A stretch of DNA of 64,000 nt from Alphaproteobacteria bacterium (GCA_963555825.3 CAUVXB020000001.1:1632001-1696000), one strand, 5' to 3'. Positions 11,678-41,724 are shown, numbered from the stretch's first letter. Notes: generated from the sequence alone by a model not told the origin. Numbers and translations are program-made.

Positions 11678-11681
11678 GCTA

Positions 11682-12440: not shown

Positions 12441-12593
12441 TAAATCACCCCAATGTCAGCCAGTTATCATCAACGCAGGGACCGATGGCATCACGCCCTC
12501 TCCTGCCCCGCGATGTACATATGGTCCGGGGTAGATAGACCAGCTCGGTTGGTTGATTTCCAAGGTGCCCATTTTGACCGGGCCAAGCAACGC

Positions 12594-13188
12594 TTAAAGT
12601 TGTCGCGGCCTTGTCTCGGACCGGGCCAGGGTGTTCCTCTCGGCCATTGCGCCGAGGGACGGATCGCCACGCATCGGCGCGTCGAGGCCGACCGTCGGCT
12701 CGTCGAGTATGAGCACCCGCGGTTCGTCCATCAATGCCCGGGCGATCTCGAGGCGACGGCGATACCCGCCGCTCAGCACGCGTACCTAGTCGCACTCGCG
12801 GCCGGCGAGGCCAAGCCGGTCGAGACAGATGCACGCCCGCTGGCGCGCCCGCCGGCCGGCGATGCCGTGGAGCGCGGCAAAATAGAGCAAATTCTGGCGC
12901 ACGCTGAGGTCGAGATCGAGCGTCGGCTGCTGGAACACGACGCCGATCCGGGACAAGACGGCGCGTGCATCCTCGGCGACGTCGACGCCGAGAACCGTGA
13001 TCCGGCCCGACCGGGCAACGAACAACCCGGTGAGCAGCGCGACGAGCGTCGATTTGCCGGCGCCGTTTGGCCCGATCAACGCCGTGAAGTGTCCGGGTGA
13101 CGCGGACAACGACACACCGTCGAGAGCGACAGTGCTGCCGTAGCTGTAGCCGACGCCGACGCCGGACGATACCCGGTGCGTTATTCAT
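12594..13188 (-). pseudogene. ABC transporter ATP-binding subunit remnant
   Basis: GPNGAGKST, LSGG and [11 protein letters not shown] present; frameshift near the start, in-frame TAG at 12786-12788, truncated after Walker B. Confidence 0.82.
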
Positions 13189-15504: not shown

Positions 15505-16617
15505 ATGAGCGTCGCCGGAACAGAGCCAGCGCGTGACGTGGCGGCGCTCAAGCCGCCGCTCGGCATGCTCGCCGAGCTGACCCATCGATGCCCGCTGCAG
15601 TGCCCCTACTGCTCGAACCCGGTCGAGCTGGTGCGCCGGAGCGGTGAGCTCTCGACCGAAGAATGGGCCGACGTCTTCCGGCAGGCGGGCGCGATGGGCG
15701 TCCTGCAGGTCCATCTCTCGGGCGGCGAGCCGACGGCGCGCAAGGATATGCCCGAACTGATCGCCGTCGCGCGGGATGCCGGTCTCTACACCAACCTGAT
15801 CACGGCGGGCGTGCTGCTGACACGCGAATCGCTCGGCCGCCTCGTCGAGGCTGGACTCGACCACGTCCAGCTCAGCCTACAAGACAGTGTCGCCGACAAC
15901 GCCGAGCGCATCGGCAACTTCCGGGGCGGCCACGCCAAGAAGATCTAGGTCGCCGGCTGGGTCGTCGCGGCTGGGCTGCCGCTCACGGTCAACGTGGTCG
16001 TGCACCGCCAGAACCTCGACCACCTCGACGAGATCATCGACATGGCGCAGGACTTGCGCGCCCACCGGCTCGAGATCGCCCATACCCAGTACTATGGCTG
16101 GGCGCTGCGCAACCGCCACAACCTGATGCCGACCCGCGCCCAGGTCGAGCGCGCCAATGCCACGGCTGAGTCGGCCGAGGTACGCTGCCGCGGCCGCATG
16201 GTCATCGACTATGTCGTGCCCGATTATTTCGCGCGCCGTCCGAAGCGCTGCATGGACGGCTGGGGCAATCAGTTTTTCGCCGTTTCACCGCGTGGCAACA
16301 TGTTGCCTTGCCATGCCGCCGAGACGATCACGGGGCTCGAATTTTCCTCGGTGCGCGATCACGCGCTGCGCTGGATTTGGGAGAATGACGCGGCATTCCA
16401 GAAGTTCCGCGGCACGGCGTGGATGCCCGAGCCCTGCCGCAGCTGCGATCGCCGCGACCTCGATCTCGGCGGCTGTCGCTGCCAGGCCTTCGCATTGCTC
16501 GGCGATGCGAGTGCCACCGACCCGGTCTGCGAGCTGTCACCCCGACACGATGTCGTTGTCGCGCTCGCCGAACGGGGTGACCCCTCGAAACAGCCGGACT
16601 ACATCTATCGACGGTAG
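15505..16617 (+). pseudogene. pqqE: PqqE radical SAM enzyme with an in-frame TAG at 15946-15948
   Basis: [17 protein letters not shown] and SPASM cysteines; both halves are in the same frame. Confidence 0.92.
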
Positions 16618-16961
16618 CAGGCAGACGTTGTCCGGCAATCACGATGTACGGCGCGAGCCGATCCGATGGTTGAAAGTCTATGTGATTTGGGGGGTACCCC
16701 CGTCACCGATAAATAAACCGGCGCCGTCGATAAGCAGAGGCGCCCTAAGTTGAGCGCCCGGTTAGTCACGTAACTGTTTCCCGCAGCAAACCGCGCTGCA
16801 GCCTGCTCGGTTCGGATCCAACGGCCCAGAGAGCGGCGTGTTCCGCCAACGTCCGCTCAGAGTCCTGGCTGTGTGAACACGTCGGCGGTGCCACGAAGGC
16901 CAACGATATCGTGGAGCGCGGTGATATGGTTGGGCGCACGGTGTGGCTGCTTGATATCCAC

Positions 16962-17675
16962 TTAGCGTTCTTGGGAACGTCGTACGAGCCCCTCGAGTGA
17001 CGCAACATCCAAGATACAAATTGAGCCGTGCTCGTGAACGATGATGCCTTGTGCCTCGAGGGCGCGTAGACCCTTGTTGACGCTCTCACGCGTCACGCCC
17101 AACATTTGGCCAAGATTTTCCTGCGTTAATTTTATGTCGATCGTAATGCCTTCCCGGGTCGGCTTTCCATACCGACTCACGAGCGTGAGCAACCGCTTCG
17201 CCAACCTGTGAGGGAAATCCAGGAAAATCGTGTCCTCGATAATATCACTCGTCCATCGGATCCGCTCACAGAGAACCCTCATCAATCGGATGCTGAGCTT
17301 CGGGTTCCTTTCGAGAAAGGGTAGGAAGTCAGCCTGATCGACCCGCATTAACTCGGCCGGATCGAGTGCCATGGCGCCAGCCGTTCGTTCCTTTCCATCG
17401 AGGAGCGCTATCTCACCGAAGACCTCGCCCGGACCCAAGATGTTGAGAAATATCTCCTTGCCACCCTCCGACGTCGTCGTGATCCCGATGCGGCCACTCA
17501 CAATCGCGTAGAGACTGTCTCCAGGGTCGCCCTTCAGGAAAACGACATCCTTCGCCGCATAGCGCTGCACGCGCGACAGAGCGATCAGCTCATCCAACAT
17601 TTCCGGCTCGAGCTGCCCAAACAGGCGATTTTTCGAGAGCGCCGCCGTGACGCCCGCCGTTGATCGGCGATTCAC
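16962..17675 (-). CDS. Crp/Fnr-family regulator with cNMP-binding domain
   Basis: FGEIALLD...RTA cNMP pocket and C-terminal HTH TQENLGQMLGVTRESVNK. Confidence 0.92.
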   Translation of the reverse strand: MNRRSTAGVTAALSKNRLFGQLEPEMLDELIALSRVQRYAAKDVVFLKGDPGDSLYAIVSGRIGITTTSEGGKEIFLNILGPGEVFGEIALLDGKERTAGAMALDPAELMRVDQADFLPFLERNPKLSIRLMRVLCERIRWTSDIIEDTIFLDFPHRLAKRLLTLVSRYGKPTREGITIDIKLTQENLGQMLGVTRESVNKGLRALEAQGIIVHEHGSICILDVASLEGLVRRSQER

Positions 17676-17804
17676 ACCAGGTCACCTCTCGCAAGTCGTT
17701 CAGCGCATCACGGCCGACCGCACAGTGACCGTGGCGGAGTGTCTTTTTGGAGAGTGTCTCAGCGATCGAGGTTCGCACGAACCGAGTTTGTTAACAAGGT
17801 TCCG

Positions 17805-18560
17805 TCAAACGGGCCCGAGTGGGCTGTCCTGCGCCGCGGCAAGGCGGGCCGCCCGCTCCCAAAGGGTGGTGTGTTCGAAGTGGAACTGGGCCGGGTGGCG
17901 GCTGGCATCGGCGCGCACTTGAACCCGCATCGTGCGCAGCATCAAGAGCGCATCCTCTCGCTTCTGGTCGACCCGACCGTTAGGGAGCCACTGCCGGAAC
18001 GCGTGCAACTCCTCGCCCGGAAGGCGGCATCGCTTGCCTTCTTCCAACATGGCGGCGAACGTCCTCTCACGGTACGGGAGGCCTTTGGCGATCACTTCGA
18101 GTCGCTCGCGTGTCTCCTGGAAAACCACGCCCTCGAGAGCAGCGTCCGAAAGCGTCCGCCTGATGTTGACCATCGCCTCCGATAGAACCGGGTAACCAAA
18201 CTCAGCCGGCCCGTGGATGACCGCCACCTCGTCGTCATCTTCCAAGACCCCTTCACGGAAGGCTTCGAAGATGGCGCCTACCCCTTCCATGCCGAATGCC
18301 GCGAGCTCGGCTGCCCGCAGCGCCCCCATACTCGCCGCGCCAAACACGCGAATGCCTCGGTTCAAGGCGTATAGAATTTCCTTATGCCAAACGCTGGGGA
18401 CGCACTCGAAATAGCCGTCGATGATACCGATCGCAGTCGGATTCTCGCACGCCGCCCGGTAGACGTCGCCCTCCGAGACGGGCGGAAGATAAACCGCCTC
18501 GAGTGCGTTCCGCGCCTCAAACGGCGGCAGCGACGGTCCGGTCATGACGAAGACCGTCAT
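17805..18560 (-). CDS. tfuA: TfuA-like protein
   Basis: IIDGYFE..PSVWHKEI, GAASMGALRAAEL and DDDEVAV.H motifs; overlaps the ycaO stop. Confidence 0.93.
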   Translation of the reverse strand: MTVFVMTGPSLPPFEARNALEAVYLPPVSEGDVYRAACENPTAIGIIDGYFECVPSVWHKEILYALNRGIRVFGAASMGALRAAELAAFGMEGVGAIFEAFREGVLEDDDEVAVIHGPAEFGYPVLSEAMVNIRRTLSDAALEGVVFQETRERLEVIAKGLPYRERTFAAMLEEGKRCRLPGEELHAFRQWLPNGRVDQKREDALLMLRTMRVQVRADASRHPAQFHFEHTTLWERAARLAAAQDSPLGPV

Positions 18561-19834
18561 GCGTCGCCTCGCAGACGCGCCCGGGCACGCTCGCCGGGGG
18601 CGTAGTTGAACGAGCTATCGACGCCCTCGAGCCCGGGAATGACGACGCGTACCACGGGGATGCCGAACTCTTCCTTGGTCAGGTCGACCACGATGACCTC
18701 GCCGATGCCGACCGAGGCCAAGCGGGCGCACGCCCAATCCACGTCGTCCTCGAAGCGATCGCCGTTCCACGTGTCGACGTCTGCGAAGCTCCGGCATGGC
18801 TCGCCGCGTTCGATGCACGACAGCCACGAGGCATGCGTCTCGGCATCGAGGAATTCGTCATATTCGGCGCGCCACAGGTCGTCGCGCGCGCCGGAAATGA
18901 AGGTCAGGCGGCTCTGGGCGGCCTCGGTGAGCGCCCTGGCGAGCGCCACGTCGCGCGACGCGTGGCAGCCCATGCCGCTCGCCGGTCGACTGCCGTTCGC
19001 CGGCGGCGCGGCCCGTTGGACAATACGGCACAGGAACGCGGGAATGCCGACGTCGGATGTCACGTCCCAGACGCCGACCTCGACGTCGGCTGCCGCGTAT
19101 TTGTCCAGCAGGTCGCGGCAGCCGGGATCGTCGACCGTGCCGAGGTCGATTCGCGTCTGCCCTTGGCCGTCTTCATCGAGCAGGTGCCAGAGCGTGACCG
19201 CGTCCCGTTCGACGACCTCGCAGATCGCGTGGCTGATTGCCTCGAGCCGGTGATTGCCCGAAGCCAGCCCGTTCGAGCTCGCGACGAAGCAGCCGTGACC
19301 GGACGGCAGCGGCAGCGTGTAGTTCAGGTGGACCAACTCGTAGGGCACCCAGACCTCGCGGTCGCCGAGCAGGTCCCGACCGCCGACCCAAAGCAGCTGC
19401 TTGTATGGCGTGAAGCGGCTGTCGACGAGCCTGGAAAGCCGATCGACATCGACCAGGCTATGGCTGTAGCGGAGGTCCTCGACGCTGCCGAGCTTGAGCG
19501 GCAAGGCGATGCGCTCGGCGTGATAGGACTCGATCGATTCCATCAGGCCCGACGCCTTGGCCGCGTCGACGTCGAGCCCCTTGCCCTGGGAAACGGAAAT
19601 CGACCGCGAGTTGGGCCGGCTCACCATGACGACGGGAATGCCGACGGTGTCGAGCCCGGTCACGTTGGCGATGCGGGTGATGCCCATGACGGGCATGAAA
19701 TGGCGGACCCGCTCGACGGTCTCGCGCGGCGGCACGAGGCGATGGGTGCCCGCCGTGAAGCCCTTGCGCGCGCCGGCGGCAACGCCTTCGACCGGCTCGT
19801 GTCCGACACGCGCTATGCTCACCGAGAGCGCCAT
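18557..19834 (-). CDS. ycaO: YcaO-family ATP-dependent backbone-modifying enzyme (TfuA-associated, thioamide-forming type)
   Basis: SQGKG, MESIE, SNGLASGN, EVVERDA, TEAAQSR and VVIPGLE; start placed at ATG 19834 after a GGGGAG RBS. Confidence 0.93.
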   Translation of the reverse strand: MALSVSIARVGHEPVEGVAAGARKGFTAGTHRLVPPRETVERVRHFMPVMGITRIANVTGLDTVGIPVVMVSRPNSRSISVSQGKGLDVDAAKASGLMESIESYHAERIALPLKLGSVEDLRYSHSLVDVDRLSRLVDSRFTPYKQLLWVGGRDLLGDREVWVPYELVHLNYTLPLPSGHGCFVASSNGLASGNHRLEAISHAICEVVERDAVTLWHLLDEDGQGQTRIDLGTVDDPGCRDLLDKYAAADVEVGVWDVTSDVGIPAFLCRIVQRAAPPANGSRPASGMGCHASRDVALARALTEAAQSRLTFISGARDDLWRAEYDEFLDAETHASWLSCIERGEPCRSFADVDTWNGDRFEDDVDWACARLASVGIGEVIVVDLTKEEFGIPVVRVVIPGLEGVDSSFNYAPGERARARLRGDA

Positions 19835-20043
19835 CGACTCCCCTGTCCTTGGCCCTGGCCCGATAGGCGCGCCGGACCCTTGGATGAACGCACTCCCTCT
19901 ATGCGGCCGCGCGAGACGCGCCGCACGCACCAATCACTCGTACTGGCGATGCACTCCGAATCGGCGGCCCGACAAGCGGCCAGACCCGACTACGCCCGAC
20001 CGACCGCGTCGTTTTTGGCGCCGATCATCGAGCGGGCTCCGAG

Positions 20044-20493
20044 CTAATCCGCCGCGTCAACGCGGATGCGCGCCGCCGCGTGGTCGCCGGGGTCGATCAC
20101 GTAGCAAGCTGCACCATGGTCGCCGGGGTCGATCACGTAGCGAGACGCACCATGATCGTCCGGCTCGATGCGCATGTGCGCCGCCAGATTGTCGCCCGGC
20201 TCGATCACGTAGCGAGCAGCACCATGGTCGCCCGGCTCGATCACGTAGCGAGCAGCACCATGGTCGCCCGGCTCGATCACGTAGCGAGCAGCACCATGAT
20301 CGTCCGGCTCGGTCATAGTGCGAGCTGCCATATGATCTGAATGACTAGCCATAACGCGATCTGATGGCTCGGTACCGCCCGCAGAAACCTCATCTAGTAC
20401 CGTTGGAACCGGTTGGGACGCACGAGCCGAAACATCGTAGAGGACGCCGTCCGCTCCGCGGACCAACGTGCTCTGTCGATCGTCGTGTGGCAT
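20044..20493 (-). CDS. Putative multi-core RiPP precursor or repeat substrate of YcaO-TfuA
   Basis: RBS GGAGG; 52-aa unique N-terminus followed by eight 12-aa units; same strand and directly upstream of ycaO. Confidence 0.75.
   Translation of the reverse strand: MPHDDRQSTLVRGADGVLYDVSARASQPVPTVLDEVSAGGTEPSDRVMASHSDHMAARTMTEPDDHGAARYVIEPGDHGAARYVIEPGDHGAARYVIEPGDNLAAHMRIEPDDHGASRYVIDPGDHGAACYVIDPGDHAAARIRVDAAD
20047..20337 (-). repeat. 36-bp coding tandem repeat, 8 units (consensus DHGAARYVIEPG)
   Basis: Unit TCGATCACGTAGCGAGCAGCACCATGGTCGCCCGGC on the + strand; contiguous with no spacers. Confidence 0.93.
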
Positions 20494-20562
20494 TTTCGCC
20501 TCCGCTGAAGGTTGGCAATGTTCGCAACGTTTGGATATCTACCGAACCGACACGCCATTGTC

Positions 20563-20578
20563 TGTGAACTACTTCACA
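20563..20578. promoter_or_regulatory. CRP-type binding site TGTGA-ACTACT-TCACA
   Basis: Perfect TGTGA-N6-TCACA 70 bp upstream of the precursor ATG; a Crp gene is in the same cluster. Confidence 0.72.
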
Positions 20579-20599
20579 GCGCTCGACGGAACGGGTGAC

Positions 20600-20648
20600 T
20601 CGCCGGCGGCGCGGCCCGTTGGACAATACGGCACAGGAACGCGGGAAT
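20600..20648 (+). repeat. 49-bp exact direct copy of ycaO-internal segment 18997-19045
   Basis: TCGCCGGCGGCGCGGCCCGTTGGACAATACGGCACAGGAACGCGGGAAT occurs at both positions. Confidence 0.9.
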
Positions 20649-20850
20649 AGGGTGTCTGGTAATGGAACAAATCGTAGGGAGGGATGCGTGCCATGGCGAA
20701 GCGAACTAATGGTGTCCGTTCGGAGTCGCGACTTCCTATTCATGGGCTGAAGGCCTGTCTCGATCAACTCCACGACGAGGCGATCGCCCAGGGATATGGA
20801 CTCGTCGCCGCGGAACCTGTCAACGACTTTGAGACAGTGACGATTACGAT

Positions 20851-21852
20851 TTACTGAGCAGTTTCTCCTGTTGTGGGTGTCACAGGTGGGTTGATCCAGA
20901 CGGCTTGGGGAAGGGGATCCGGTTGTGGTATCCCTCGAACGAAGCGTTCGGGATGACGGGTCCAGGCGGCTTGAAGGGTCCGCCCGCGCTGCTCCAGCAC
21001 GCTCTGGGTTCGATTGTGATGCACGTCGTCCGGGGTGAGCATGGCGATCCCGCCATGGCGATGTTCGGTGTTGTACCAAGGGAAGAACGTTCGGCAGAAG
21101 GCGATCGCGGCGGTGATGTCGTGGAAGCGGCCAGGGAAGCCGGGGTGGTACTTCAGGGTCTTGAACTGCGCCTCGGAGAAGGGGTTGTCGTCGGACACCT
21201 GAGGGCGGCTCAGTGAACGGGTCACGCCGAGGTCGGCGAGCAGTTGTGCGGTGCACTTGCTCGTCATCGGCGCGCCGCGGTCGGAGTGCAGGGTGAGCAC
21301 CTGGGGCTGGACGCCCTGTTTATGGCAGGTCTCTTCGATGAGACGACCGGCCAGCGCCGAGTTCTCCCGGTCTGCGACCATCCAGCCGACCGCGTAGCGG
21401 CTGAAGATGTCGAGCACGACGTAGAGGTAGAAGTACGTCCACTTGGTCGGCCCCAACAGCTTGGTGATGTCCCAGGACCAGGTCTGGTTCGGCGCCGTGG
21501 CCACCAGCTCGGGCTTGGTGTACTGGGGATGCTCGCGCTGATTGCGCCGCTCTCGGACCGGCTGATCGGCGGCCAGGATCCGATACATCGTCCGCTCCGA
21601 GCACAGGTAATGGCCTTCGTCGAGCAGCGTCGCCACGACCTCCGCCGGCGCACGGTCGACGAAGCGCGGGCCGGCGAGCACATCGAGGATCTGCTCGCGC
21701 TCGGCTTCACACAGCGCCCGGGCGGGCGTTGGACGGGGCTGCTGGTGCCCGGGAGTTGACCTCTGACGACGGTAGAAGCTCGCCCGTGACACGCCCAGTG
21801 CTTGGCAGGCCGGCGCCACGCCGACCTGCGCCGCAAGCGGTTGGACCGCCAT
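20851..21852 (-). CDS. IS3-family transposase OrfB
   Basis: WSWDIT, LHSDRG and DNPFSEAQFKTLK; TGATG overlap with orfA. Confidence 0.88.
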   Translation of the reverse strand: MAVQPLAAQVGVAPACQALGVSRASFYRRQRSTPGHQQPRPTPARALCEAEREQILDVLAGPRFVDRAPAEVVATLLDEGHYLCSERTMYRILAADQPVRERRNQREHPQYTKPELVATAPNQTWSWDITKLLGPTKWTYFYLYVVLDIFSRYAVGWMVADRENSALAGRLIEETCHKQGVQPQVLTLHSDRGAPMTSKCTAQLLADLGVTRSLSRPQVSDDNPFSEAQFKTLKYHPGFPGRFHDITAAIAFCRTFFPWYNTEHRHGGIAMLTPDDVHHNRTQSVLEQRGRTLQAAWTRHPERFVRGIPQPDPLPQAVWINPPVTPTTGETAQ

Positions 21853-22334
21853 CAAGAGCGCGTTCCGTGTTCGAGGTTCAATCCCAGCAGCCCGGCAACT
21901 TTTCCCTGCACGTCCAGGATCGTGTGCGCGGTGTGCAACTCGTGCTCCAGGCGAGCCACTTGCGCCTCGAGCGCGCGCACCTTCGCATCCAGCGGGTTGC
22001 GTTCGGCCGGTTTCGCGCCGCGCTTCTTCGCGGCCAACTCCCGCAGCGAGCCCTTGCGCCGCGCCTTGCGCCAAGCCGTCAGATGCGAGCTGTACAACCC
22101 CTCGCGGCGAAGCAGGCGGCCCACCTCGCCGGGCTGTGTGCAGCGATCCGCCTCCTCCAGAATCCGCAGCCGATACTCTGCGGTGAACTGGCGCCGCTTC
22201 GGCTTGGCCACAACCTCCGGGTCCGGGGTCGGTCTGGCGCGGCCGGCCCTGGGGGCCTCGTCGCTACGCTCCTCGACCCCAAGGGCCGGAACGGAAACCT
22301 CATTCAATGTCATCGAGTCTCTCTCTGCGGTCAT
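21852..22334 (-). CDS. IS3-family OrfA
   Basis: RRQFTAEYRLRIL HTH and C-terminal coiled coil. Confidence 0.82.
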   Translation of the reverse strand: MTAERDSMTLNEVSVPALGVEERSDEAPRAGRARPTPDPEVVAKPKRRQFTAEYRLRILEEADRCTQPGEVGRLLRREGLYSSHLTAWRKARRKGSLRELAAKKRGAKPAERNPLDAKVRALEAQVARLEHELHTAHTILDVQGKVAGLLGLNLEHGTRS

Positions 22335-22568
22335 CGGTTTTCACCTCCACCGCCCTACAGAAATTCCGAAGGTTGCTGGTGTCTCAGTGATGTTGGCAGA
22401 GAGGGCCGTGCTGATCGGGGCCGCGTCCGAAGCGGTCATCGACGAAGAACTGGAAAGGGCGGCAAGAACGCCGGCACGCGCAGCGCACGGCGTGCATTAG
22501 CGTCACGGCTAAGCGGCTCGGACAATTAGAGACGACGAAGCGCTCACAGAGAGCTATTGTCAAAAGTT

Positions 22569-24369
22569 GACGGGGCGGTAAAAAGTCGATTCCTCATGAG
22601 AGTCGGCTGGATTATAATTGTGCATGTTTACTTTACGCGACCGACGGACTGGGGAATTGTTTGATCGCTGGTCCGATTTCGGGGACAAACGTCGGCGCCT
22701 GATGGAGCAATCCTGGGCCGGGGTTTTTCGGAACCATCTGCTTGTCGAACTTCCGGTTGACGATCTTTGCCGTCACCTTGATGAACGCATGGGCCGACCA
22801 TCGAAGGATCTACACGTTGTCATCGGGGTCTTGCTTTTGCAGCAGCTGCACGATCTGAGCGATGCAGAGACCGTCGAGGCCCTGGCCTTCAATATGGCGT
22901 GGCACTATGCCTTGGACGTGCGCAGCGAAGCGGACAGCTATTTCTGTGAGAAAACCCTGCGCAACTATCGCCGTCTGTTTATCGAACAAGGTCTCGATGA
23001 ATTGCTGTTCCGGTGTTTGACGGATCGGCTGGTGCAGGGGTTCTCTGTCGATACCAGCCACCAACGCATGGATTCGACGGCCCTTCGTTCGGCAATGCGG
23101 GCGCTGACACGACTTGGTATCGTTGTTGAGAGCATCTCGAAGTTTGCCCGTGAGCTTGAGCGATATCATCCCGGTCTGCACGAGCAGATCAGCAAGGAGG
23201 TGATCCGCCGCTATGTCGATCGCGAGGGTAATGGCGCGTTCGCGAATACGGCGCCGAGTGTTTCAAAACGGCGCCTCGGCGAAGCGGGTCAGTATCTCCT
23301 AGCCCTGGTGCTGCAATTCCGTGACACGGCGGCGGCAAAGCTTTCCAGTTTTGCGATCCTGGAGAGGGTTCTGCGCGATCAGTTCGAGATCGTTGATGAT
23401 GAGTATGGCGATCGTGACGCAACGCGCGCCGCGATTCGAGATCCAAAGGATGTGCCGTGCGATACCGTCGGCAATCCGGCCGACCCGGACGCGAGCTACA
23501 ACGCGCACAAGGGTCAAGGATACATGGCGCAGATCGTCGAAACCTATTGTGAAGATGTCAGTAACGAGGCGGTTGCCGCGACACCGGACCTCATCACCCA
23601 CGTGGAGGTCCACAAGATGACGGTGCATGACGGCCATCGCTTAGCCGATGCGCTGGATGATCTGAGCGAGCGCGCGCTGACGCCGGCGGTGATGCTGGGT
23701 GATTCACATTACGGTTCCAGTGACAACATGGCTCTGACGCGCGAACAGAACATCAATCTCGTGGCGCCCGCACGACCGCCGAAAGGCGCCGTCTCGGGAC
23801 GGTTGACGTTGGAGGATTTCACTCTCAACGAAGAAGGCTTGGTCTTGCGCTGTCCCAATAACGTCGAACCGGTTTCAGCCTCGCTCGCCAAAGCCAAGCT
23901 GCAGGCCCGTTTCGACCTCTCCATCTGCCAAAAATGTCCCGATATACTGCGATGTCCCGTGCAGGCGGCCAAGCGTGACGGCCAATTTTCCCGCTTTCAA
24001 TATACCCCGGCCAGGGCTGCCAACCAAAAGCGCCGGCTTTATGAACAAAGCGATGCCTTCCGCAACGTCTACAGATGGCGGGCCGGCATAGAAGCGACCA
24101 TGTCGCGATTAAAGTACCAGATGAACCTGGCTCACCTACGCATTCGCGGCATGCCGGCCATGCGCTACGTGGTCAATCTGCGTGCCCTCGGCCTCAATAT
24201 CCGACGCTGCGCGGCAATCGCACCATAAAAAACGAAGCCAAGGAGAAGCCAAGGGTAGGTAATATCAGGTTTTATCCACCAGCAACGCGGAGACAGGCAA
24301 ATATTCTTCACCGAACCGCAAAGACCTGTACAAGCACGCCATCGGCCAACAACTTTTTATCGCCCCGTC
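22569..24369 (+). mobile_element. IS1182-like element, copy 1 (1801 bp)
   Basis: IRs GACGGGGCGGTAAAAAGT; flanked by parts of IS256 terminal repeats. Confidence 0.88.
22618..24228 (+). CDS. IS1182/IS5-like DDE transposase, 536 aa
   Basis: GRPS...LSD.E N-terminal domain, DST, DSHY and Y..RAGIEATMS.LK; four near-identical copies. Confidence 0.88.
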   Translation: MCMFTLRDRRTGELFDRWSDFGDKRRRLMEQSWAGVFRNHLLVELPVDDLCRHLDERMGRPSKDLHVVIGVLLLQQLHDLSDAETVEALAFNMAWHYALDVRSEADSYFCEKTLRNYRRLFIEQGLDELLFRCLTDRLVQGFSVDTSHQRMDSTALRSAMRALTRLGIVVESISKFARELERYHPGLHEQISKEVIRRYVDREGNGAFANTAPSVSKRRLGEAGQYLLALVLQFRDTAAAKLSSFAILERVLRDQFEIVDDEYGDRDATRAAIRDPKDVPCDTVGNPADPDASYNAHKGQGYMAQIVETYCEDVSNEAVAATPDLITHVEVHKMTVHDGHRLADALDDLSERALTPAVMLGDSHYGSSDNMALTREQNINLVAPARPPKGAVSGRLTLEDFTLNEEGLVLRCPNNVEPVSASLAKAKLQARFDLSICQKCPDILRCPVQAAKRDGQFSRFQYTPARAANQKRRLYEQSDAFRNVYRWRAGIEATMSRLKYQMNLAHLRIRGMPAMRYVVNLRALGLNIRRCAAIAP

Positions 24370-24457
24370 GAATCTTGTGTACGGCGTTGAAATGAAGGCG
24401 GCGTATCCTGGTGATTGTTGATGTCACCACTTGAGCTAAGCCAAGGAAGGATACGCC

Positions 24458-25702: not shown

Positions 25703-25722
25703 TCAGCCCATACACAACTTTT

Positions 25723-27523: not shown

Positions 27524-27628
27524 AACTTTTGACAATAGCTCCGCCATACCAAGGAGACGCGACTAAGAACCATAGAGATCCTGTACGCTTTTCGCCGGGT
27601 CGGAAGCGAGCCGCGGGCGATGGAATTA

Positions 27629-27908
27629 TACCAAGGGTCAGTGATAAAGGCCCCCAGAGATCGCGTCCGCATTTCGCCGGTGAGGCAAGACAGCCGCGGG
27701 CGATGCAGCGCATCGGCTAGGCGTCCTGACGACCTCCGGCGAAAAGCGGCCGCGACCCGAAGGGCGGCTTGCCGAGGCTCTCGGACGTCGTTGCACCGGT
27801 CTTGCGATGCGCCTCCTATTGCCATACGTGGGCATCGCCGCGACGGGCGCGCCTAGCCGAGAACCACGGCAAGCCGTCTCTAGGGGTCTTTATCACTGAT
27901 CCTTGGTA
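27629..27908. mobile_element. 280-bp MITE
   Basis: IRs TACCAAGG(G/A)TCAGTGATAAAG(G/A)CCC; TTA duplication; no ORF; internal stems. Confidence 0.82.
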
Positions 27909-28013
27909 TTAGGCAGAGCGTTCGAATTCCGTCGACGACGGGGAACCAAATAGGACAAGGGGTCGCGCCGCCCGGGCGCGATCTCCCTTGTTGCATTTGG
28001 GCGTCAGCCGGCC

Positions 28014-36815: not shown

Positions 36816-36831
36816 TGTGAAGTGCTTCACA
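36816..36831. promoter_or_regulatory. CRP-type binding site TGTGA-AGTGCT-TCACA
   Basis: Perfect consensus ~320 bp upstream of the adenylate cyclase gene. Confidence 0.6.
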
Positions 36832-39800
36832 TTTGTGGACATTTGATCGCGCGTGACTCACCCTGGGATAGAGCGCGCCGTGTATCGGGGTAAGAGATCT
36901 GCTCAACCAACAGCAGCGCCACCGATACGTTCGGACGATGCCATCGGATCGGCTTGGGCAGCGTTTGCCTGAAGGGTGAGTCTCTGGTTTAGGTTGCGCA
37001 TGCGCCGGCGAAGCCGAATACTGGGAGTTTCGGGGTCATCTTGTTTCGAAGTCGTGGCCCCGCCATCGAGCGATTGCTCCGTGTTTTTTCACGCTTTCGT
37101 GAGATGGGGGGCCGCAGGCGCGTATTACAATTGAGGCGCTGCCTATGCTGTGGGGGCTAGGGCGGAGAACAACTCAGTGTCGAGGAGGACACACGGTGCT
37201 GTTGGGGACGGGGTGGATGACCGGCGCCGGTCACCCGCGGCAGCGACCGTACGCGACCAGGGTCACGCGCCGTATTCGGTAGTAGACAATCCGTTCGAGC
37301 CGTTCGACGGTGAGCGGAAATTCGCCTCCGTGTTGTTCGCCGATATCGTCAAGTCGTCCGCCATGGTCTCGGGTCGCGATCCCGAACAGGCGAACGATTT
37401 GCTCATGCCTGTCCTGCAGTTGTTGATCAATTCGGCTCACCAGTTTGGCGGCACTGTCACCCTGGTCCTCGGCGACGGGATCATGGTCGTGTTCGGCGCG
37501 CCAATCGCGCAATAAGACCACGCGATCCGGGCGTGTCTCGCGGCCGACGGGATGCAGAATGCCATCCGCCTGGCCTTCGGTGCGGGGCCGCCGCCGGCGG
37601 GTCCGCCGATCGCGATTCGGGTCGGGCTCAATTCGGGCGAGGTCGTGATACAGACCGTCGAGAACGACCTGTCGGCCGAGTATCGGGTCGCCGGCGAGAC
37701 CATGTACATCGCCGCGCGCATGGAGAAGGCGGCCGGGCCCGGCGTAACGCTGCTATCCGAGGAAACCTTGAAGCTGGCCGCGCGTTGGGTCGAGGCCAGC
37801 CGGGCCGGGCGCTTCGCGTTGACCGCGGGCGCGCGCAGAGTGACCGCCTTCGAGCTCGAACGCGTCACGCGCGACAAGACCGTCTTGCGCCACGCGTTGC
37901 CGCCGCGGATGGACGTCTTCGTCGGCCGGGACGACGACATCGAGTTCATGCACGACGTCCTGCGAAGCGTCGAGAACGGAGACGGCAAGGCGTTGGTCGT
38001 CACGGGCGAGGCCGGCGTCGGCAAGTCTCGGCTGGTTCATGAGTTTCTCCGATCCGGCCGCGCCGACCAACACCACGTAATCGAATGTGCGCTGTTGCCG
38101 GCCGGCCTCGTGCAACCGCTGGAGCCGCTGACCCGCATCGTCGGCAGTCTGATGGCCATCGAGCCGGACGCGACGGCCGCAACGATCTCGGCCAAGGCGT
38201 CGAGGCTTCTGGATTCGCTGGACATCGCCGACGACATTGCCGTGCCGGCCGTCCTCGGTATTTTCGACGTTCCGCACGGTTCGCCGTCGTGGTTGGCTTT
38301 GGATCCACCCGAGCGGCTCGGCGCCATGATCGACACGGCGACCCGGATCATCCTCGCGGCGAGCCGCCTGAGGCCGGTCGTCATCGTATTCGATGACTTT
38401 CATTGGGCCGACTCGGAGACGCGGCTGCTCGCCGAGGAGCTGGCCAGCCGTCTGGCGTCGTCACGGGTCCTGCTGGCCATCACCTCGCGCAGGCCTCACG
38501 GCGAGGACCATATCGATTGGCCGGGCGCGATCGAACACCGGTTGGGCCGTTTGACGGCGCGGCAGAGCGCCGAGCTGTTACAATCCCTGCTCGGCGACGC
38601 CGCCGATCTGGACGATCTGAAGGAGCTGTTGGTCAAGACCACCCAAGGCATTCCCTTCTTCATCGAAGAGTGCGTCCGGACGCTGGTCGAGACCGGAGCG
38701 TTGCGCGGCGCCGAGGGCGCCTATCGCCCGCAGGTTCCGATCGAGAGCCTGCAGATGCCGCTGAGCGTCCACGCCGTGCTGGCGGCGCGCATCGACTCGC
38801 TGCCGCGGGTCGATCGGTCCGTGCTGCTGTCCGCCTCGGTCGTCGGCCAGAATTTCGACGTCGGCCTGCTCCGCGACATCACCGACTTATCGGCCGAGGA
38901 ACTGATCGTTCGGCTCGATCGCTTGCGGGCCGCGGGGTTCGTTCAAAACACCAGTATCCTACCCAACCTCGAGTACAGCTTTGGGCACGCGCTGATCCAC
39001 GACGTCGCGTACCGCACCCTACTGAAGCGCCAACGGCGCGCCCTGCACGGCCGGCTCGTCGGCGCGATCAGGAAGCGCCGCACCGAGCAGCTCTCGGGCA
39101 AGATCGAGCTGCTCGCTTACCACGCGTACCGCGCCGAAGCGTGGCCCCAGGCGGCCGTCTACGGCCGCATGGCCGGCCAGAAGGCACAGTCGAAATCACG
39201 CAATCGGGAAGCGGCCGATTTCTTCGACAAAGCACTTCAGGCGTTGGACCAGCTTCCCCGAACGCGGAAGAACACGGAACGTTCGATCGACACTCGGCTC
39301 GAGCTGGCCCAGTCGCGCTTCCCGCTTGGAAAGAAAGATCAGGTTCATTTCGACCTCGTTGAAGCGGAGAATTTGGCCAAGGGTCTAGGTGACCACACCG
39401 GCTCGCAGAGATCTCATCAAGCAGGACTCTCTATCACTGGATAAATTGCGACCTTCAAGAAGCGGTTCGTACGGCCGAAAGCGCTCTCGATATCGCAGGC
39501 AGGCTCGACGACGTCGAACTCCACGTCTCGACCGCCGTGCGGCTAGGTGCGCTACTGGTGGACGTCGGTGATTATGAGCGGGCCTGCCAATTACTTGAGA
39601 TCGCTATTAGAAAAATTCCTGACGATGCGATTGACAATCGCTTTGGATTGCTTGCTGCCGCATCGGTTGCCTGTCGAGCGACATTGGCGCGGAGTTTAGG
39701 GGAGCTTGGCCGATTCGACGAGGCCATTCAGGTTGGCGACGAAGCCATAAGGATCGCTGATGAAGTCGGACATGCATTCAGTCAATTATATGCTCTTATG

Positions 39801-40082
39801 CATGCTGCCGCCGTTCTTCTGATCAAAGGGGGCTTTGAACAGAGCCTACCCCTCTTGGAGCGGAGCCTCGAACTGTGTGAATCGACGCGATCGAAACTCC
39901 TCGTTCCACAAGTAGCCAGTTCCTTGGGCTATGCCTATGTGCGAACAGACCAAGTTTCGCGAGGGCTTGCGCTCATGGAGGAAGCGGCGACAAGAGCCGA
40001 CAGACAACGTGATTTCGGCACGCACTGCCGACAGTTTTTGCGGTTGGCTGAGGCATACCTTTCAGCTGGACAGACAGATAAA

Positions 40083-41724
40083 CCCGCATTTCCCAAGTAT
40101 CGTCGATATTCAGTGCGGCGAGAAGGCGATTCTGCTATAAGAATCATGAAGTTGTAGCATACATGGAGCGGCGGATATGGCACACCCGATGGGTGAATCG
40201 AAACCGGGGTGCCTTCGGGTCGTTTTTGACCGTCGATTGAAGCTTGAATTCCACGGTTCCAAGATCACCTCTGATGCCGGGTTGCTCGCCTACCGGGAGC
40301 TTGACGATGCCCTCGGCCTGACTGAGATGGCCGAGGGTGTTTTCCAGGATAGCCGTACCGGCAAGAACGGATGGCACGGCATGACGGGTCAGTTTCGCCA
40401 GTCCGTTTTCGGGCGCCTTGGCGGCTATGACGATGTGAACGACGCCGACCGTCTGGGACGCGATCCCGCCATGCGCTGGATTGTTGGCGGCAAGGCCATC
40501 GAAAGACAGGCCGCTTCCACCAGCCAGATGGGACGCTTCGAGACGGAGCTATTGGCCACCGACGAGAACGTTGAAGCCTTGGTCGACATGAACGGGGTGT
40601 GGATCGACAAGGTTCATGACCGCCATCCGCCGAAGATGATCATTCTCGACATGGACAGCAGCGTCAGCCCGACCCATGGCGAACAAGAGGGAACAGCGTA
40701 CAATGGTCACTTCGGCTGTACCTGCTAGCATCCGCTATTCCTGTTCAACCAGTTCGGCGACTTGGAGAGATGTTCCCTGCGCCCCGGTAATGTTCACAGT
40801 GCCGACGGATGGCGGAATGTTCTGGAGCCGGTGGTGATGCGCTATAAGGAAAGGAAGGTGCGGCTGTATTTTCGTGGCGATGCCGCCTTCGCCTCACCGG
40901 AGATATACGAATATCTCGAAGCCGAGGGATTACTCTACGTCATCCGCCTCAAAGCGAACGCGATTCTCCAGCGGAACATTGCCCATCTGCTTACGCGACC
41001 TGTCGGTCGCCCGCCCGACCATGTTCGCCGTTTCCACGCCAGCTTCAGCTATCAGGCCGGATCGTGGAACAAGAAGCGCCGTGTCGTGGCCAAAGTGGAG
41101 TGGCACCCCGGCGAGCTGGTTCCTCGCGTCGGTTTCATCGTCACTAATCTGTCGCGCCCTACCAAGCGGGTGGTGGCGTTCTATAATCACCGTGGCACGG
41201 CGGAGCAGCACATCAAGGAAGGCAAGAACGCCATCAACTGGACCCGTCTGTCATGTCGCAAGTTCCGCAACAATGCCGTTCGGCTCCAGCTTCACGCCCT
41301 GGCCTACAATCTGGGCAACTTCATGAGGACACTGGCTTTGCCGAAGGAGGTGGAGCACTGGTCGATGACGACGTTGCGCGACAAGCTGGTGAAGATCGGG
41401 GCCAAGGTTGTCCGACATGGCCGCTACGTTACGTTCCAATTGGCTGAGGTGGCGGTGCCGAGGGACCTGTTCCGGAAAATCCTGAGCTTGATTGATGATC
41501 TGCGACGAAGACCCGCTCCGGCGTAGGCCGAGGGAATCGACGGCGAGGAGAAAGCGACAGGAGAGGTGTGTCTGGATGGCGAGAAAAATGACCGAGTGGC
41601 CTTCCAAGCGCGGGCCGATTACCAAAATCATGCCATCGGATGGCTGCATAGGGGATACAGTTCCCTTGGCGGTGGGAAAGTGGTACGATTTCCACGAATT
41701 TGGATGGTATATGGGGAATGTCGG
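40083..41724 (+). mobile_element. IS1380-family element; transposase 40177-41526 has an in-frame TAG at 40726
   Basis: TSDAGLL, LDMDSS, RGDAAF and RG.AEQ.IKEGK motifs; ATAAA duplication. Confidence 0.92.

What the first reader, a model, noticed from the sequence alone, without database searches (positions are those of the whole stretch)
17805..20493. YcaO-TfuA locus with an eight-core tandem-repeat precursor: candidate new thioamidated RiPP family
Seen: a 149-aa ORF with a good RBS lies directly upstream of overlapping ycaO-tfuA on the same strand. Residues 53-149 are eight 12-aa units: DHMAARTMTEPD, DHGAARYVIEPG x3, DNLAAHMRIEPD, DHGASRYVIDPG, DHGAACYVIDPG, DHAAARIRVDAAD. The 52-aa leader contains LVRGADGVLY. 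Established: YcaO plus TfuA install backbone thioamides (thioviridamide-type RiPPs, MCR thioglycine), and azoline-forming YcaOs need Cys/Ser/Thr substrates and usually end in a Pro-rich tail. Here the cores are nearly Cys/Ser/Thr-free and the YcaO has no such tail. Inference: each unit is thioamidated (e.g. at G/A in DHGAA or at PG), giving either several short His-containing thiopeptides or an uncleaved poly-thioamide, possibly metal-binding, protein. I do not recognise this precursor type. No protease, exporter or ThiS/ThiF gene is visible nearby.
Basis: partly seen in the sequence, partly recalled or inferred. Interest (0 to 1): 0.92.

Follow-up and report, generated by a model that had tools for sequence, protein, structure and literature searches.

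The report
Repeat-core YcaO-TfuA peptide with CRP switch
A small gene made of eight near-identical 12-residue units sits in front of a sulfur-inserting enzyme pair and belongs to a previously undescribed alphaproteobacterial peptide family that travels with its own cyclic-nucleotide sensor, regulator and operator site.

Summary

The ORF is a real, conserved gene. 33 database proteins and loci from about 16 other genomes or metagenome contigs share the leader (V/T)RG(A/P)DGxLY. Their cores follow D-(H/Y/F)-x-A-(A/S/G)-R-x-x-(I/V)-(D/E)-(P/A)-G and occur in 1 to about 24 copies, always directly upstream of orthologous ycaO-tfuA.

The conserved module has five genes: adenylate-cyclase-STAND-TPR, precursor, YcaO, TfuA, Crp. 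A TGTGA-N6-TCACA box lies about 57-117 nt upstream of the precursor start in 12 of 12 distinct genomes. The extended form TGTGAA-N4-TTCACA occurs only twice in this 6-Mb genome, both times in this locus.

Here the cyclase gene is a displaced pseudogene, separated from the precursor by about 15 kb of insertion sequences.

Best reading: a multi-core precursor thioamidated by YcaO-TfuA, analogous to the thiovarsolins but not a member of that family, under dedicated cNMP/Crp control. The chemistry, cleavage and function are untested. His is not conserved family-wide, which weakens the metal-binding idea.

I rate it a new variant of a known kind.

The parts
20044..20493 (-). Precursor gene (149 aa). 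The leader is residues 1-52, with LVRGADGVLY at residues 10-19. The core region is residues 53-149, made of eight 12-aa units with consensus D-H-A-A-A/S-R-I-x-I/V-D/E-P-G.
   Evidence: ORF and translation. Tandem repeat, period 36. 30 + 3 homologues with the same leader. Unit frequencies. AF2 models only a beta-hairpin at residues 10-20 (block pLDDT 85); the rest is below 50. No Pfam or NCBIfam match.
20499..20503 (-). Shine-Dalgarno GGAGG, 5 nt before the precursor ATG.
   Evidence: Sequence read.
20563..20578 (.). Perfect CRP-type palindrome TGTGAAGTAGTTCACA (read on the minus strand), centred 77.5 nt upstream of the precursor ATG. Inferred to be the operator of the module's Crp-like regulator.
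   Evidence: 2 matches in the window against 0.01 expected. Only 2 sites of TGTGAA-N4-TTCACA in the 6.04-Mb genome. An equivalent box lies upstream of the precursor in all related loci where that region is present.
18557..19834 (-). YcaO (425 aa from the ATG at 19834; the longest ORF starts at TTG 19933). ATP-dependent backbone-amide activating enzyme. It is the only YcaO in the genome.
   Evidence: PF02624 E 4.7e-86. Single genomic copy. Best NCBIfam hit is TIGR03266, McrA-Gly thioamidation YcaO, at 237 bits, below the 365 cut-off. Best PDB hit is 6pe3, MJ1094.
17805..18560 (-). TfuA (251 aa). Its start overlaps the ycaO stop by 4 nt. Partner of thioamide-forming YcaOs.
   Evidence: PF07812 E 1.2e-46. 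NF033432 at 211.6 bits, cut-off 235.2. The 120 listed homologues are at least 61% identical and include Azospirillum spp..
16962..17675 (-). Crp/Fnr-family regulator (237 aa) with a cNMP-binding domain (phosphate-binding cassette FGEIALLDGKERTA) and an HTH (recognition helix RESVNK). Conserved directly downstream of tfuA in related loci.
   Evidence: PF00027 2.8e-24 and PF13545 9.6e-18. Synteny by tblastn. The motif reading is from the translation, with the E. coli CRP residues recalled.
20600..20648 (.). 49-nt exact copy of an internal ycaO segment (18997-19045), lying 22 nt beyond the CRP box. Read as a rearrangement scar: similarity to a relative's contig stops at about 20600.
   Evidence: X19 contig piece 20384-20600 with a loose end beyond it.
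20810..22409 (-). IS3-family element in the position where related loci carry the cyclase gene. It is the first of a run of insertion sequences reaching about 35.5 kb.
   Evidence: 100% identical 1600-bp copy elsewhere in the genome. rve/rve_3 domains.
36816..36831 (.). Second perfect CRP-type box, TGTGAAGTGCTTCACA, about 330 nt upstream of the cyclase pseudogene.
   Evidence: One-mismatch boxes sit in the same position upstream of the cyclase in L005, L070 and L071.
37150..40157 (+). Pseudogene of the module's adenylate/guanylate-cyclase-AAA_16(STAND)-TPR protein. It has an in-frame TAA at 37513-37515 and a frame break near 39440, its C-terminus is cut by an IS at 40177, and it is inverted and about 17 kb away from the precursor.
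   Evidence: Best genomic match to the Azospirillum module protein, E 4.8e-114, with 1 TAA inside. Translation. Pfam domains.

Best explanation
The 149-aa ORF is the multi-core precursor peptide of a previously undescribed alphaproteobacterial YcaO-TfuA RiPP family.

Inferred mechanism:
1. The N-terminal hairpin motif (V/T)RG(A/P)DGxLY serves as the recognition element.
2. YcaO uses ATP to activate a backbone amide in each D-(H/Y/F)-x-A-(A/S/G)-R-x-x-(I/V)-(D/E)-(P/A)-G unit.
3. TfuA delivers sulfide from a ThiS-type thiocarboxylate encoded elsewhere. This gives one thioamide per unit.
4. The most likely site is within the invariant A-(A/S/G)-R segment, by analogy with the thiovarsolin A-P(CS)-R.
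5. Release of short peptides, if it happens, relies on housekeeping peptidases, as proposed for thiovarsolins.

Transcription of the precursor (and probably ycaO-tfuA) starts at a promoter with a perfect TGTGA-N6-TCACA operator. That operator is bound by the Crp-like regulator encoded at the end of the module. The regulator's cyclic-nucleotide ligand is normally made by the cyclase-STAND-TPR protein encoded at the head of the module.

In this genome an IS invasion has displaced and inactivated that cyclase. The precursor, YcaO, TfuA, Crp and both operators remain intact.

Shown: the gene family, the synteny, the operator, and the enzyme family assignments. Inferred: thioamidation, the site, the Crp-operator pairing, the cyclase-Crp coupling, cleavage, and biological role.
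For: (1) The gene is real and conserved.
- 30 homologues of 81-261 aa and 3 of 80 aa or fewer share the leader and carry 2-5 cores. None has a Pfam domain.
- Invariant leader residues are R12, G13, A14, G16, L18, Y19 and V21.

(2) Adjacency to orthologous ycaO-tfuA.
- 7 loci from a pattern scan of 185,579 species genomes and 8 from metagenomes (four of these duplicate earlier MAG loci) have the precursor immediately upstream of ycaO wherever the contig continues.
- Reciprocal test: in a sample of 401 Alphaproteobacteria, 25 have a YcaO homologue at E<=1e-40. Of the 16 with 45-67% identity that I examined with flanks, 8 have co-oriented YcaO-TfuA-Crp, and 6 of those 8 have a leader-type or repeat precursor upstream. 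The 8 without such a Crp show none.

(3) RiPP hallmarks.
- The leader is conserved while core sequence and copy number vary widely: a single core in Azospirillum ending ...DHEAARVMITPGA*, 8 here, 9 in L005, about 24 in L051.
- The cores are predicted disordered and the leader is predicted as a hairpin.

(4) Chemistry.
- TfuA overlaps YcaO.
- The best NCBIfam and PDB matches are thioamide-forming types.
- The cores lack Cys/Ser/Thr.
- TfuA is never encoded near uL16-modifying YcaOs, and it works with ThiS-type carriers (PMC13063428, passages read).
- Five ThiS-family hits lie elsewhere in the genome.
- In thiovarsolins, precursor + YcaO + TfuA suffice (PMC6511847).

(5) Regulation.
- A perfect box occurs in 11, and a one-mismatch box in 1, of 12 distinct genomes. 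It is centred about 57-117 nt before a candidate ATG; four further metagenome loci agree.
- The window has 2 boxes against 0.01 expected.
- The genome has exactly 2 sites of the extended consensus, both in this locus.
- Crp keeps the cNMP phosphate-binding cassette (translation).
- The cyclase-STAND-TPR gene is adjacent in 12 of the loci mapped and in all 8.
Against: - No mass-spectrometric or expression evidence exists for any member.
- GC3 of the precursor frame (0.64) is lower than that of the antisense ORF 20080-20340 (0.77) and lower than neighbouring genes. However, the antisense ORF covers only the repeats and has no counterpart in the single-core loci.
- Two genomes of one genus (L052, L053) have YcaO-TfuA-Crp but no recognisable precursor.
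- No protease, exporter or immunity gene is conserved in the module, so a released or secreted product is not supported.
- The cyclase domain keeps both metal-binding Asp. It replaces the adenine-specifying Lys by Gln/Leu and the transition-state Asn by His/Tyr, so cyclase activity is uncertain.
- In this genome the cyclase is a pseudogene, and pqqE nearby also carries an in-frame stop, so the locus may be decaying.
- YcaO and TfuA score below the curated cut-offs of the McrA-thioamidation equivalogs.
Confidence: 0.6

Rival explanations
1. The repeat ORF is a genuine, co-regulated gene but not the YcaO-TfuA substrate. The enzyme pair would thioamidate a folded cellular protein, as E. coli YcaO does with uL16 and archaeal YcaO-TfuA with McrA. 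The repeat protein would have another role, for example as a ligand or decoy for the TPR sensor, or as a metal or stress buffer.
For: - YcaOs acting on folded proteins exist (PMC13063428, abstract and passages).
- L052/L053 keep YcaO-TfuA-Crp without a recognisable precursor, and L055 has the STAND-TPR gene abutting ycaO with no ORF between them.
- No protease or exporter is present in the module.
Against: - The leader-plus-variable-core architecture and the strict position directly upstream of ycaO are typical of substrates.
- TfuA is reported never to be encoded near uL16-type YcaOs.
- The S12/uL16-type model scores 24.6 bits against a cut-off of 700.
- This YcaO (425 aa) lacks the roughly 150-residue TPR domain described for EcYcaO.
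Confidence: 0.12
2. The precursor is the substrate, but YcaO installs a different modification (amidine or another nucleophile adduct on the activated amide), or thioamidation is only a first step towards a further-processed product.
For: - YcaOs also make azolines and amidines (general knowledge; listed in PMC13063428 discussion).
- Thiovarsolins were suspected to be shunt products of a longer pathway.
- The scores sit below the thioamidation equivalog cut-offs.
Against: - TfuA is so far linked only to thioamide formation.
- There are no Cys/Ser/Thr for azolines.
- No further tailoring enzyme is conserved in the module.
Confidence: 0.1
3. In this particular genome the module is a decaying remnant. 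With its cyclase destroyed and its upstream region replaced by insertion sequences, the precursor operon is no longer induced, and the eight-unit array reflects neutral repeat slippage rather than function.
For: - The cyclase is a pseudogene, inverted and about 17 kb away.
- About 15 kb of IS elements abut the promoter, together with a 49-nt scar.
- pqqE has an in-frame TAG.
- Three units are identical at the DNA level, indicating recent expansion.
Against: - The precursor, ycaO, tfuA and crp reading frames, the RBS and both perfect operators are intact.
- An intact paralogous cyclase-STAND gene and many other cyclase-domain genes exist in the genome and could supply the nucleotide.
- This rival concerns only this genome, not the family.
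Confidence: 0.25
4. The ORF is a chance open frame in a GC-rich tandem DNA repeat and encodes nothing.
For: GC3 is lower than in the antisense frame. The protein alone has low AF2 confidence.
Against: The amino-acid leader is conserved across several alphaproteobacterial lineages (MAGs labelled Kiloniellales, Rhodospirillales and Alphaproteobacteria, plus Azospirillum), including single-core genes that contain no DNA repeat. They share an RBS and a conserved operator.
Confidence: 0.01

Closest known systems
Thiovarsolins (Streptomyces varsoviensis var cluster; Santos-Aberturas et al. 2019, PMC6511847)
   Same: - The precursor has a conserved leader and imperfect tandem core repeats, and repeat number varies between species (0-5 there, 1 to about 24 here).
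- YcaO + TfuA are the only dedicated enzymes needed.
- No dedicated protease.
- The modified motif there is small-residue-X-Arg (A-P-R, thioamide at Pro-Arg). Here A-(A/S/G)-R is the most conserved part of each unit.
   Different: - Actinobacteria versus Alphaproteobacteria.
- No Pro in the A-x-R motif.
- None of the heme-oxygenase-like VarO, ATP-grasp, amidinotransferase or MFS genes is present.
- A different leader: no motif comparison with VarA was possible because its sequence is in a figure.
- The cyclase-STAND / Crp / operator module is not described for var clusters in the passages read.
Archaeal McrA-glycine thioamidation pair (YcaO TIGR03266 / TfuA NF033432; M. jannaschii YcaO structure 6pe3)
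   Same: These are the best-scoring curated models and the best solved structure for this YcaO and TfuA. The chemistry is the same as predicted here.
   Different: The scores are below the equivalog cut-offs (237 vs 365 bits; 211.6 vs 235.2 bits). The substrate there is a folded enzyme, not an adjacent leader-core peptide.
TOMM system kinase/cyclase fusion protein (TIGR03903) next to NHLP-Burk YcaO clusters (Haft et al. 2010, PMC2887384, figure legend read)
   Same: A large signalling protein with a cyclase-homology domain and a STAND/TPR-like region is encoded beside a YcaO RiPP cluster. The module protein matches positions 626-1135 of that model at E 2.9e-67.
   Different: - 227.5 bits against a cut-off of 705.75.
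- No Ser/Thr kinase domain here.
- Those clusters make azol(in)es from NHLP precursors with a cyclodehydratase-docking fusion.
- In the passages I read (the hits for 'cyclase' and 'kinase' in that paper) no Crp partner or operator is mentioned.
TfuA-related BGCs catalogued in Proteobacteria (Malit et al. 2021, PMC8120280)
   Same: That survey reports over a thousand uncharacterised TfuA-YcaO clusters in Proteobacteria (passages). This locus would fall into that set.
   Different: The terms 'repeat', 'cyclase', 'Crp', 'Rhodospirillales' and 'multiple core' do not occur in its main text. I did not open its supplementary tables.

Membership tests
YcaO-TfuA thioamidated RiPP (generic class) | YcaO-domain enzyme with an adjacent TfuA | tested here: met
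   PF02624 E 4.7e-86 and PF07812 E 1.2e-46; the genes overlap by 4 nt.
YcaO-TfuA thioamidated RiPP (generic class) | Adjacent short precursor gene with a conserved leader and a variable core | tested here: met
YcaO-TfuA thioamidated RiPP (generic class) | Backbone thioamide in the product (+15.977 Da, about 270 nm absorbance) | not testable with these tools
   Needs expression and MS.
YcaO-TfuA thioamidated RiPP (generic class) | Sulfur donor (ThiS-type carrier or sulfide) | tested here: inconclusive
   Five ThiS-family matches lie elsewhere in the genome and none in the module. Which one, if any, serves TfuA is unknown.
Thiovarsolin family | Repeating core peptide with variable repeat number | tested here: met
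   1 to about 24 units across loci. This is an analogy of architecture only.
Thiovarsolin family | A/G-P-R core motif | tested here: not met
   Position 5 of the unit is A 61, S 18, G 5, N 2, F 1 of 87; it is never Pro.
Thiovarsolin family | Conserved accessory genes (heme-oxygenase-like VarO, ATP-grasp, amidinotransferase, MFS) | tested here: not met
   No such Pfam domains in the window or in the L005/L006/L008/L010/L011 flanks.
Azoline-forming TOMM/LAP/cyanobactin YcaO | Cys/Ser/Thr in the core, plus an E1-like/Ocin-ThiF partner | tested here: not met
   C 0.3%, S 2.4%, T 0.9% in 106 units. TIGR03604 scores 144.7 bits, below the 219.25 cut-off. No partner domain in the module.
uL16/S12-associated standalone YcaO (E. 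coli type) | No TfuA nearby; extra TPR domain; matches the NF040716 model | tested here: not met
   TfuA overlaps the gene. NF040716 scores 24.6 bits against a cut-off of 700. Paper passages.
McrA-glycine thioamidation equivalogs | Score above the curated equivalog cut-offs | tested here: not met
   237.2 < 365 and 211.6 < 235.2 bits.
CRP-type cNMP-dependent regulator (for 16962-17675) | cNMP-binding domain with phosphate-binding cassette, a C-terminal HTH, and a TGTGA-N6-TCACA operator | tested here: met
   Pfam domains. FGE...RTA and RESVNK are read from the translation, with the E. coli reference residues recalled. Operators. Binding itself was not tested.
Class III adenylate/guanylate cyclase (for the module's STAND protein) | Two metal-binding Asp, a substrate-specifying Lys/Asp or Glu/Cys pair, and transition-state Asn and Arg | tested here: inconclusive
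   Both Asp are conserved. Lys is replaced by Gln/Leu, Asn by His/Tyr, and Arg is kept or replaced by Lys. This comes from the alignment to CyaC 1wc0/1wc1 and nine orthologues. The residue roles are recalled.

The most novel reading that the evidence does not exclude
The five-gene module is a self-contained peptide/cyclic-nucleotide circuit. The STAND-TPR cyclase would sense the mature thioamidated repeat peptide (or a signal it reports, such as a metal or sulfur state) through its TPR domain and make cAMP or cGMP. The dedicated Crp paralogue would then switch on the precursor promoter. In the sub-lineage that includes this genome, it would also switch on the cyclase promoter, through the only two operator sites in the genome. 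That would be an autoinducing loop in which a thioamide RiPP is the signal rather than an antibiotic.
Probability: 0.15. Interest if true: 0.85.

Novelty: new variant of a known kind. Interest (0 to 1): 0.7.

Why it matters
All characterised TfuA-YcaO RiPPs come from Actinobacteria, while more than a thousand proteobacterial clusters remain uncharacterised (PMC8120280).

This family offers a minimal proteobacterial system: precursor, YcaO and TfuA, with natural variants from one to about two dozen cores. Database names place it in cultivable, genetically tractable Azospirillum species.

It comes with an unusually explicit regulatory hypothesis of one cyclase, one Crp paralogue and one operator. 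That makes both the chemistry and the biological trigger directly testable.

Multi-core substrates would also be useful for studying how YcaO-TfuA processes repeated sites.

Tried and rejected
- **Complex prediction.** The first job (YcaO + TfuA + precursor 1-88) failed and was not counted. The second (YcaO alignment A3 + precursor A1 residues 1-88) returned 'no answer', score 0.00, and controls were not run. This counts neither for nor against binding.
- **RNA evidence.** Two metatranscriptome runs from one study gave contigs covering only 16900-17749 (the crp gene). None covered tfuA, ycaO or the precursor. Two 'metatranscriptomic WGA' runs hold a 90-95% relative of tfuA-ycaO and of 20384-20600. 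These are contigs only, so they give no statement on expression of the precursor.
- **ESM Atlas.** Busy on the first try, then no usable hit.
- **Promoter, terminator and structure scans.** The sigma-70 scan found 0 promoters, and 4 terminator-like sites against 2.4 expected. The precursor-ycaO spacer folds no better than shuffles, z 0.86.
- **Antisense ORF 20080-20340.** Considered because of its higher GC3. Rejected because it spans only the repeats and the leader frame is conserved across lineages.
- **uL16/S12 target and azoline formation.** Considered and rejected (see membership tests).
- **ORFs near the second box.** The 98-aa ORF 36546-36842(-) beside the second box has no Pfam match at E<=1.
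- **TfuA mechanism paper.** PMC8084935 is not held. The role of TfuA is cited from a passage in PMC13063428.
- **IS3 ends.** An inverted-repeat search did not define the ends. A genome self-match did.


Full report
**1. Observation**

The minus strand of the window carries four genes in a row.
- A 149-aa ORF at 20044-20493.
- ycaO. The longest ORF is 18557-19933. The start that matches orthologues is the ATG at 19834, giving 425 aa.
- tfuA at 17805-18560, which overlaps the ycaO stop by 4 nt.

The small ORF has GGAGG 5 nt before its ATG. A 52-aa leader contains LVRGADGVLY, followed by eight 12-aa units. Three of the units are identical even at the DNA level. Tandem Repeats Finder gives period 36, 6.5 copies, score 300. 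The genome has a single YcaO gene and a single copy of the precursor.

**2. The ORF is a conserved gene**

A word-indexed search of 5.8 billion proteins found 30 homologues of 81-261 aa (E from 2e-37 to 3.5e-8) and three of 80 aa or fewer. None has a Pfam domain, and almost all come from short metagenome contigs.

All of them keep the N-terminal motif (L/I/P/F)(V/I)RGA(D/A)GxLY.V. It is followed by a variable spacer of about 30 residues and then 2-5 units. R12, G13, A14, G16, L18, Y19 and V21 are invariant in the alignment.

Over 87 distinct (protein, unit) pairs the unit reads as follows (positions 1 and 4 were fixed by the extraction pattern).
- D
- H (76 of 87; otherwise Y, L, N, F or Q)
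- x
- A
- A/S/G
- R (79 of 87)
- hydrophobic or Q
- x
- I/V (85 of 87)
- D/E (84 of 87)
- P (82 of 87)
- G (76 of 87)

Cys, Ser and Thr make up 0.3%, 2.4% and 0.9% of unit residues.

AlphaFold2 with this alignment models only a beta-hairpin at residues 10-20 (block pLDDT 85). Everything after about residue 34 is left below 50. That is the usual picture of a leader recognition element followed by a disordered core.

One weak point against the frame is its GC3 of 0.64. This is lower than the antisense ORF 20080-20340 (0.77) and lower than neighbouring genes. However, the antisense frame exists only across the repeats, and it cannot exist in the single-core relatives.

**3. Related loci, searched in both directions**

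*From precursor to enzymes.* A pattern scan of one genome for each of 185,579 species returned 7 loci.
- A Kiloniellales MAG
- A Rhodospirillales MAG
- An unclassified alphaproteobacterial MAG
- Four Azospirillum genomes

A metagenome scan returned 8 loci, four of which duplicate those MAGs. Wherever the contig continues, ycaO and tfuA follow directly.

The Azospirillum genes encode a single core that ends the protein, for example ...FDAADHEAGRYSITPGA*...GDHEAARVMITPGA* and ...DHEASRTYVNPGL*. The Kiloniellales type has 9 units of D(Y/H)xAGRMAIEA.

*From enzymes to precursor.* In an even sample of 401 genomes of the same class, 25 (including this one) have a YcaO homologue at E<=1e-40. I fetched flanks for the 16 best from other genomes, plus one same-order genome, and mapped them by tblastn.

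Eight have co-oriented YcaO-TfuA-Crp, with YcaO 51-67% identical. Six of these eight have a precursor upstream of ycaO.
- Two Azospirillum-type single cores.
- L051, with leader IAVRGPDGVLY and about 24 units of DADAGRWAI(S/T)P.
- L054, with leader LTRGADGRLY and two ASADLY(F/T) units.
- L058, with leader LTRAPDGHLY and five units of DDSQRHAANFIGTTP.
- L064, with repeats of AAYIDPGALHADRAEARGGEDSASS, cut at the contig start.

The same-order relative (YcaO 70% identical) shows ...SRAVIEPGDHLASRAVIDPGDHVAV* at its contig edge.

The two exceptions (L052, L053) belong to one genus of small, low-GC genomes. The eight loci without such a Crp (45-52% identity; several have a 440-452-aa TfuA or a YcaO-TfuA fusion) show no leader-type ORF. 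Twelve weaker hits were checked only for the leader motif, and none had it.

So the precursor type defines a YcaO clade.

**4.

Pfam and tblastn maps give a common order in the Azospirillum, Kiloniellales-type and Rhodospirillales-type loci:

[Guanylate_cyc - AAA_16 - TPR protein of about 980-1070 aa] -> precursor -> YcaO -> TfuA -> [cNMP_binding + HTH_Crp_2 regulator]

The flanking genes outside these five differ between lineages. They include ilvD/edd, HlyD and MarR in Azospirillum, and SfsA, M24 peptidase and RadC in L005. No protease, exporter or immunity gene is conserved.

The large protein matches the NCBIfam model 'TOMM system kinase/cyclase fusion protein' (TIGR03903) over its STAND/TPR part, at E 2.9e-67 but 227 bits against a cut-off of 705. 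Haft et al. 2010 noted a large kinase beside NHLP-Burk YcaO clusters (PMC2887384, figure legend). A large signalling protein next to a YcaO cluster therefore has a precedent. This architecture, with no kinase domain and with a Crp partner, does not.

**5. A dedicated operator**

The window contains two perfect TGTGA-N6-TCACA palindromes, against 0.01 expected from shuffles.
- One at 20563-20578, centred 77.5 nt before the precursor ATG.
- One at 36816-36831.

The extended form TGTGAA-N4-TTCACA occurs at exactly these two places in the 6.04-Mb genome. The reversed-pattern control gives none.

In the related loci, a perfect box (11 distinct genomes) or a one-mismatch box (1 genome) lies upstream of the precursor. 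It is centred about 57-117 nt before a candidate ATG, and it is the only perfect box in each 8-18 kb locus. The four new metagenome loci agree.

The Crp-like protein keeps the cyclic-nucleotide phosphate-binding cassette (FGEIALLDGKERTA) and an R-E-x-x-x-K recognition helix. These were read, and the comparison with E. coli CRP is recalled. Its nearest paralogue in the genome is only 26% identical.

My inference is that this regulator binds this box and controls the precursor promoter.

The second box lies about 330 nt upstream of the cyclase gene. One-mismatch boxes occupy the same position in L005, L070 and L071, but not in the Azospirillum loci. This suggests feedback on the cyclase in one sub-lineage.

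**6. State of the locus in this genome**

The best genomic match to the module's cyclase-STAND protein lies at about 37150-40157 on the opposite strand.
- It has an in-frame TAA at 37513-37515.
- It has a frame break near 39440.
- Its C-terminus is cut by an IS.

Between it and the precursor lie an IS3 element (20810-22409; an identical copy lies elsewhere) and a chain of further IS copies up to about 35.5 kb. By Pfam these are DDE_Tnp_1-type, Mutator-type (x2), DDE_3-type (x2), a second rve/IS3-type and IS110-type transposases, plus a second copy of the 536-aa DDE transposase (25772-27382) that was not itself scanned.

Similarity to a relative's contig ends at about 20600. A 49-nt exact copy of an internal ycaO segment sits at 20600-20648.

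The native promoter is therefore preserved only up to about 22 nt beyond the operator. pqqE nearby also has an in-frame TAG.

The four downstream genes, the RBS and both operators are intact. An intact paralogue of the cyclase-STAND gene (32% identity) and many other cyclase-domain genes exist elsewhere in the genome.

**7. What the enzymes most likely do**

- The best NCBIfam hits for YcaO and TfuA are the McrA-glycine thioamidation equivalogs, both below cut-off.
- The best solved relative is the M. jannaschii YcaO, 6pe3.
- The azoline-type model scores lower, and the cores offer no Cys/Ser/Thr.
- The uL16-modifying YcaOs of Pseudomonadota are reported never to have TfuA nearby. In non-sulfidic organisms, TfuA is described as working with a thiocarboxylated ThiS-type carrier (PMC13063428, passages).
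- Five ThiS-family genes lie elsewhere in this genome.

In the thiovarsolin system, a repeat precursor plus YcaO plus TfuA is sufficient. The product is Ac-Ala-Pro(CS)-Arg, and release is attributed to host peptidases (PMC6511847, passages).

By analogy I place the thioamide within the conserved A-(A/S/G)-R segment, one per unit. This is inference only.

The cyclase domain keeps both metal-binding Asp. It has Gln/Leu in place of the adenine-specifying Lys and His/Tyr in place of the transition-state Asn (residue roles recalled). Its activity and its nucleotide are therefore open questions.

**8. What is known and what is new**

Full-text searches found no description of this precursor family or of a YcaO-TfuA cluster with a cyclase/Crp module. 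The searches were:
- TfuA + YcaO + thioamide + repeat + precursor
- TfuA + Azospirillum
- thioamidated + TfuA + Proteobacteria + genome mining
- YcaO + TfuA + adenylate cyclase
- YcaO + Azospirillum
- thioamide + RiPP + Alphaproteobacteria + TfuA

The global survey of TfuA clusters does not contain the words repeat, cyclase or Crp in its main text. I did not open its supplements.

The class (YcaO-TfuA RiPP) and the multi-core architecture are both known. The precursor family, its taxonomic range and its dedicated cNMP/Crp operator circuit are new. I therefore rate it a new variant of a known kind.

**9. Limits**

There is no chemical or expression evidence. The complex prediction gave no verdict. 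The RNA contigs cover only the crp gene and cannot speak to the precursor. Counts of loci include close relatives and are not independent samples.

Noticed in passing
window 15505-16617 (+), stop at 15946-15948: pqqE (radical SAM + SPASM), in a pqqB-C-D-E cluster, carries an in-frame TAG (…GHAKKI*VAGWV…). This is either a pseudogene or a sequencing error.
   Followed up: partly
window 20600-20648 and 18997-19045: A 49-nt exact direct duplicate of an internal ycaO coding segment sits 22 nt beyond the CRP box, exactly where similarity to a relative's contig ends. It is probably filler or scar from the rearrangement that removed the cyclase gene.
   Followed up: partly
window 36816-36831: The second of the genome's only two TGTGAA-N4-TTCACA sites lies between the cyclase pseudogene (+) on one side and a divergent 98-aa ORF and HTH_3 gene (35859-36443, -) on the other. 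Which gene it serves is not settled.
   Followed up: partly
window 20810-35500 and 40177-63500: IS density is extreme. A 536-aa DDE transposase is present four times (22618, 25772, 42249, 54302). There are also several Mutator-family (IS256-like), IS3, IS630-like, IS110 and IS1380-like copies, some of them broken. About 40 short matches to one IS end occur across the genome.
   Followed up: partly
window 6567-11651: Sulfate-assimilation-type genes lie 6-10 kb from the module: a PAPS-reductase domain (6567-7187), ATP sulfurylase (8038-9210) and a 759-aa FAD protein (9372-11651). They are not conserved next to the module in other genomes, so a sulfur-supply link is only a thought.
   Followed up: no
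L052 and L053 (two genomes of one genus, about 1.6 Mb, low GC): These have YcaO-TfuA-Crp but no leader-type precursor. In L053 a perfect CRP box (11250-11265) precedes a roughly 215-aa lysine-rich ORF instead.
   Followed up: no
L055 (G122), about 9864-13036: A cyclase-STAND-TPR gene ends within a few bases of the ycaO start, with no ORF between them and no Crp downstream. The substrate in this branch is unknown.
   Followed up: no
L056, L057, L061, L062; L059: In the more distant YcaO clade (45-51% identity), TfuA is 439-452 aa with an extra C-terminal region, or it is fused to YcaO (847 aa in L059).
   Followed up: no
Azospirillum loci L008-L011, L049: RHH_4 (PF13467) genes flank the module on both sides: one between the cyclase and the precursor on the opposite strand, and one after crp. 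This is seen only in Azospirillum.
   Followed up: no
window 4892-6109 (-): A 405-aa caspase-family (Peptidase_C14) ORF lies 11 kb from the module and is not conserved in related loci.
   Followed up: no
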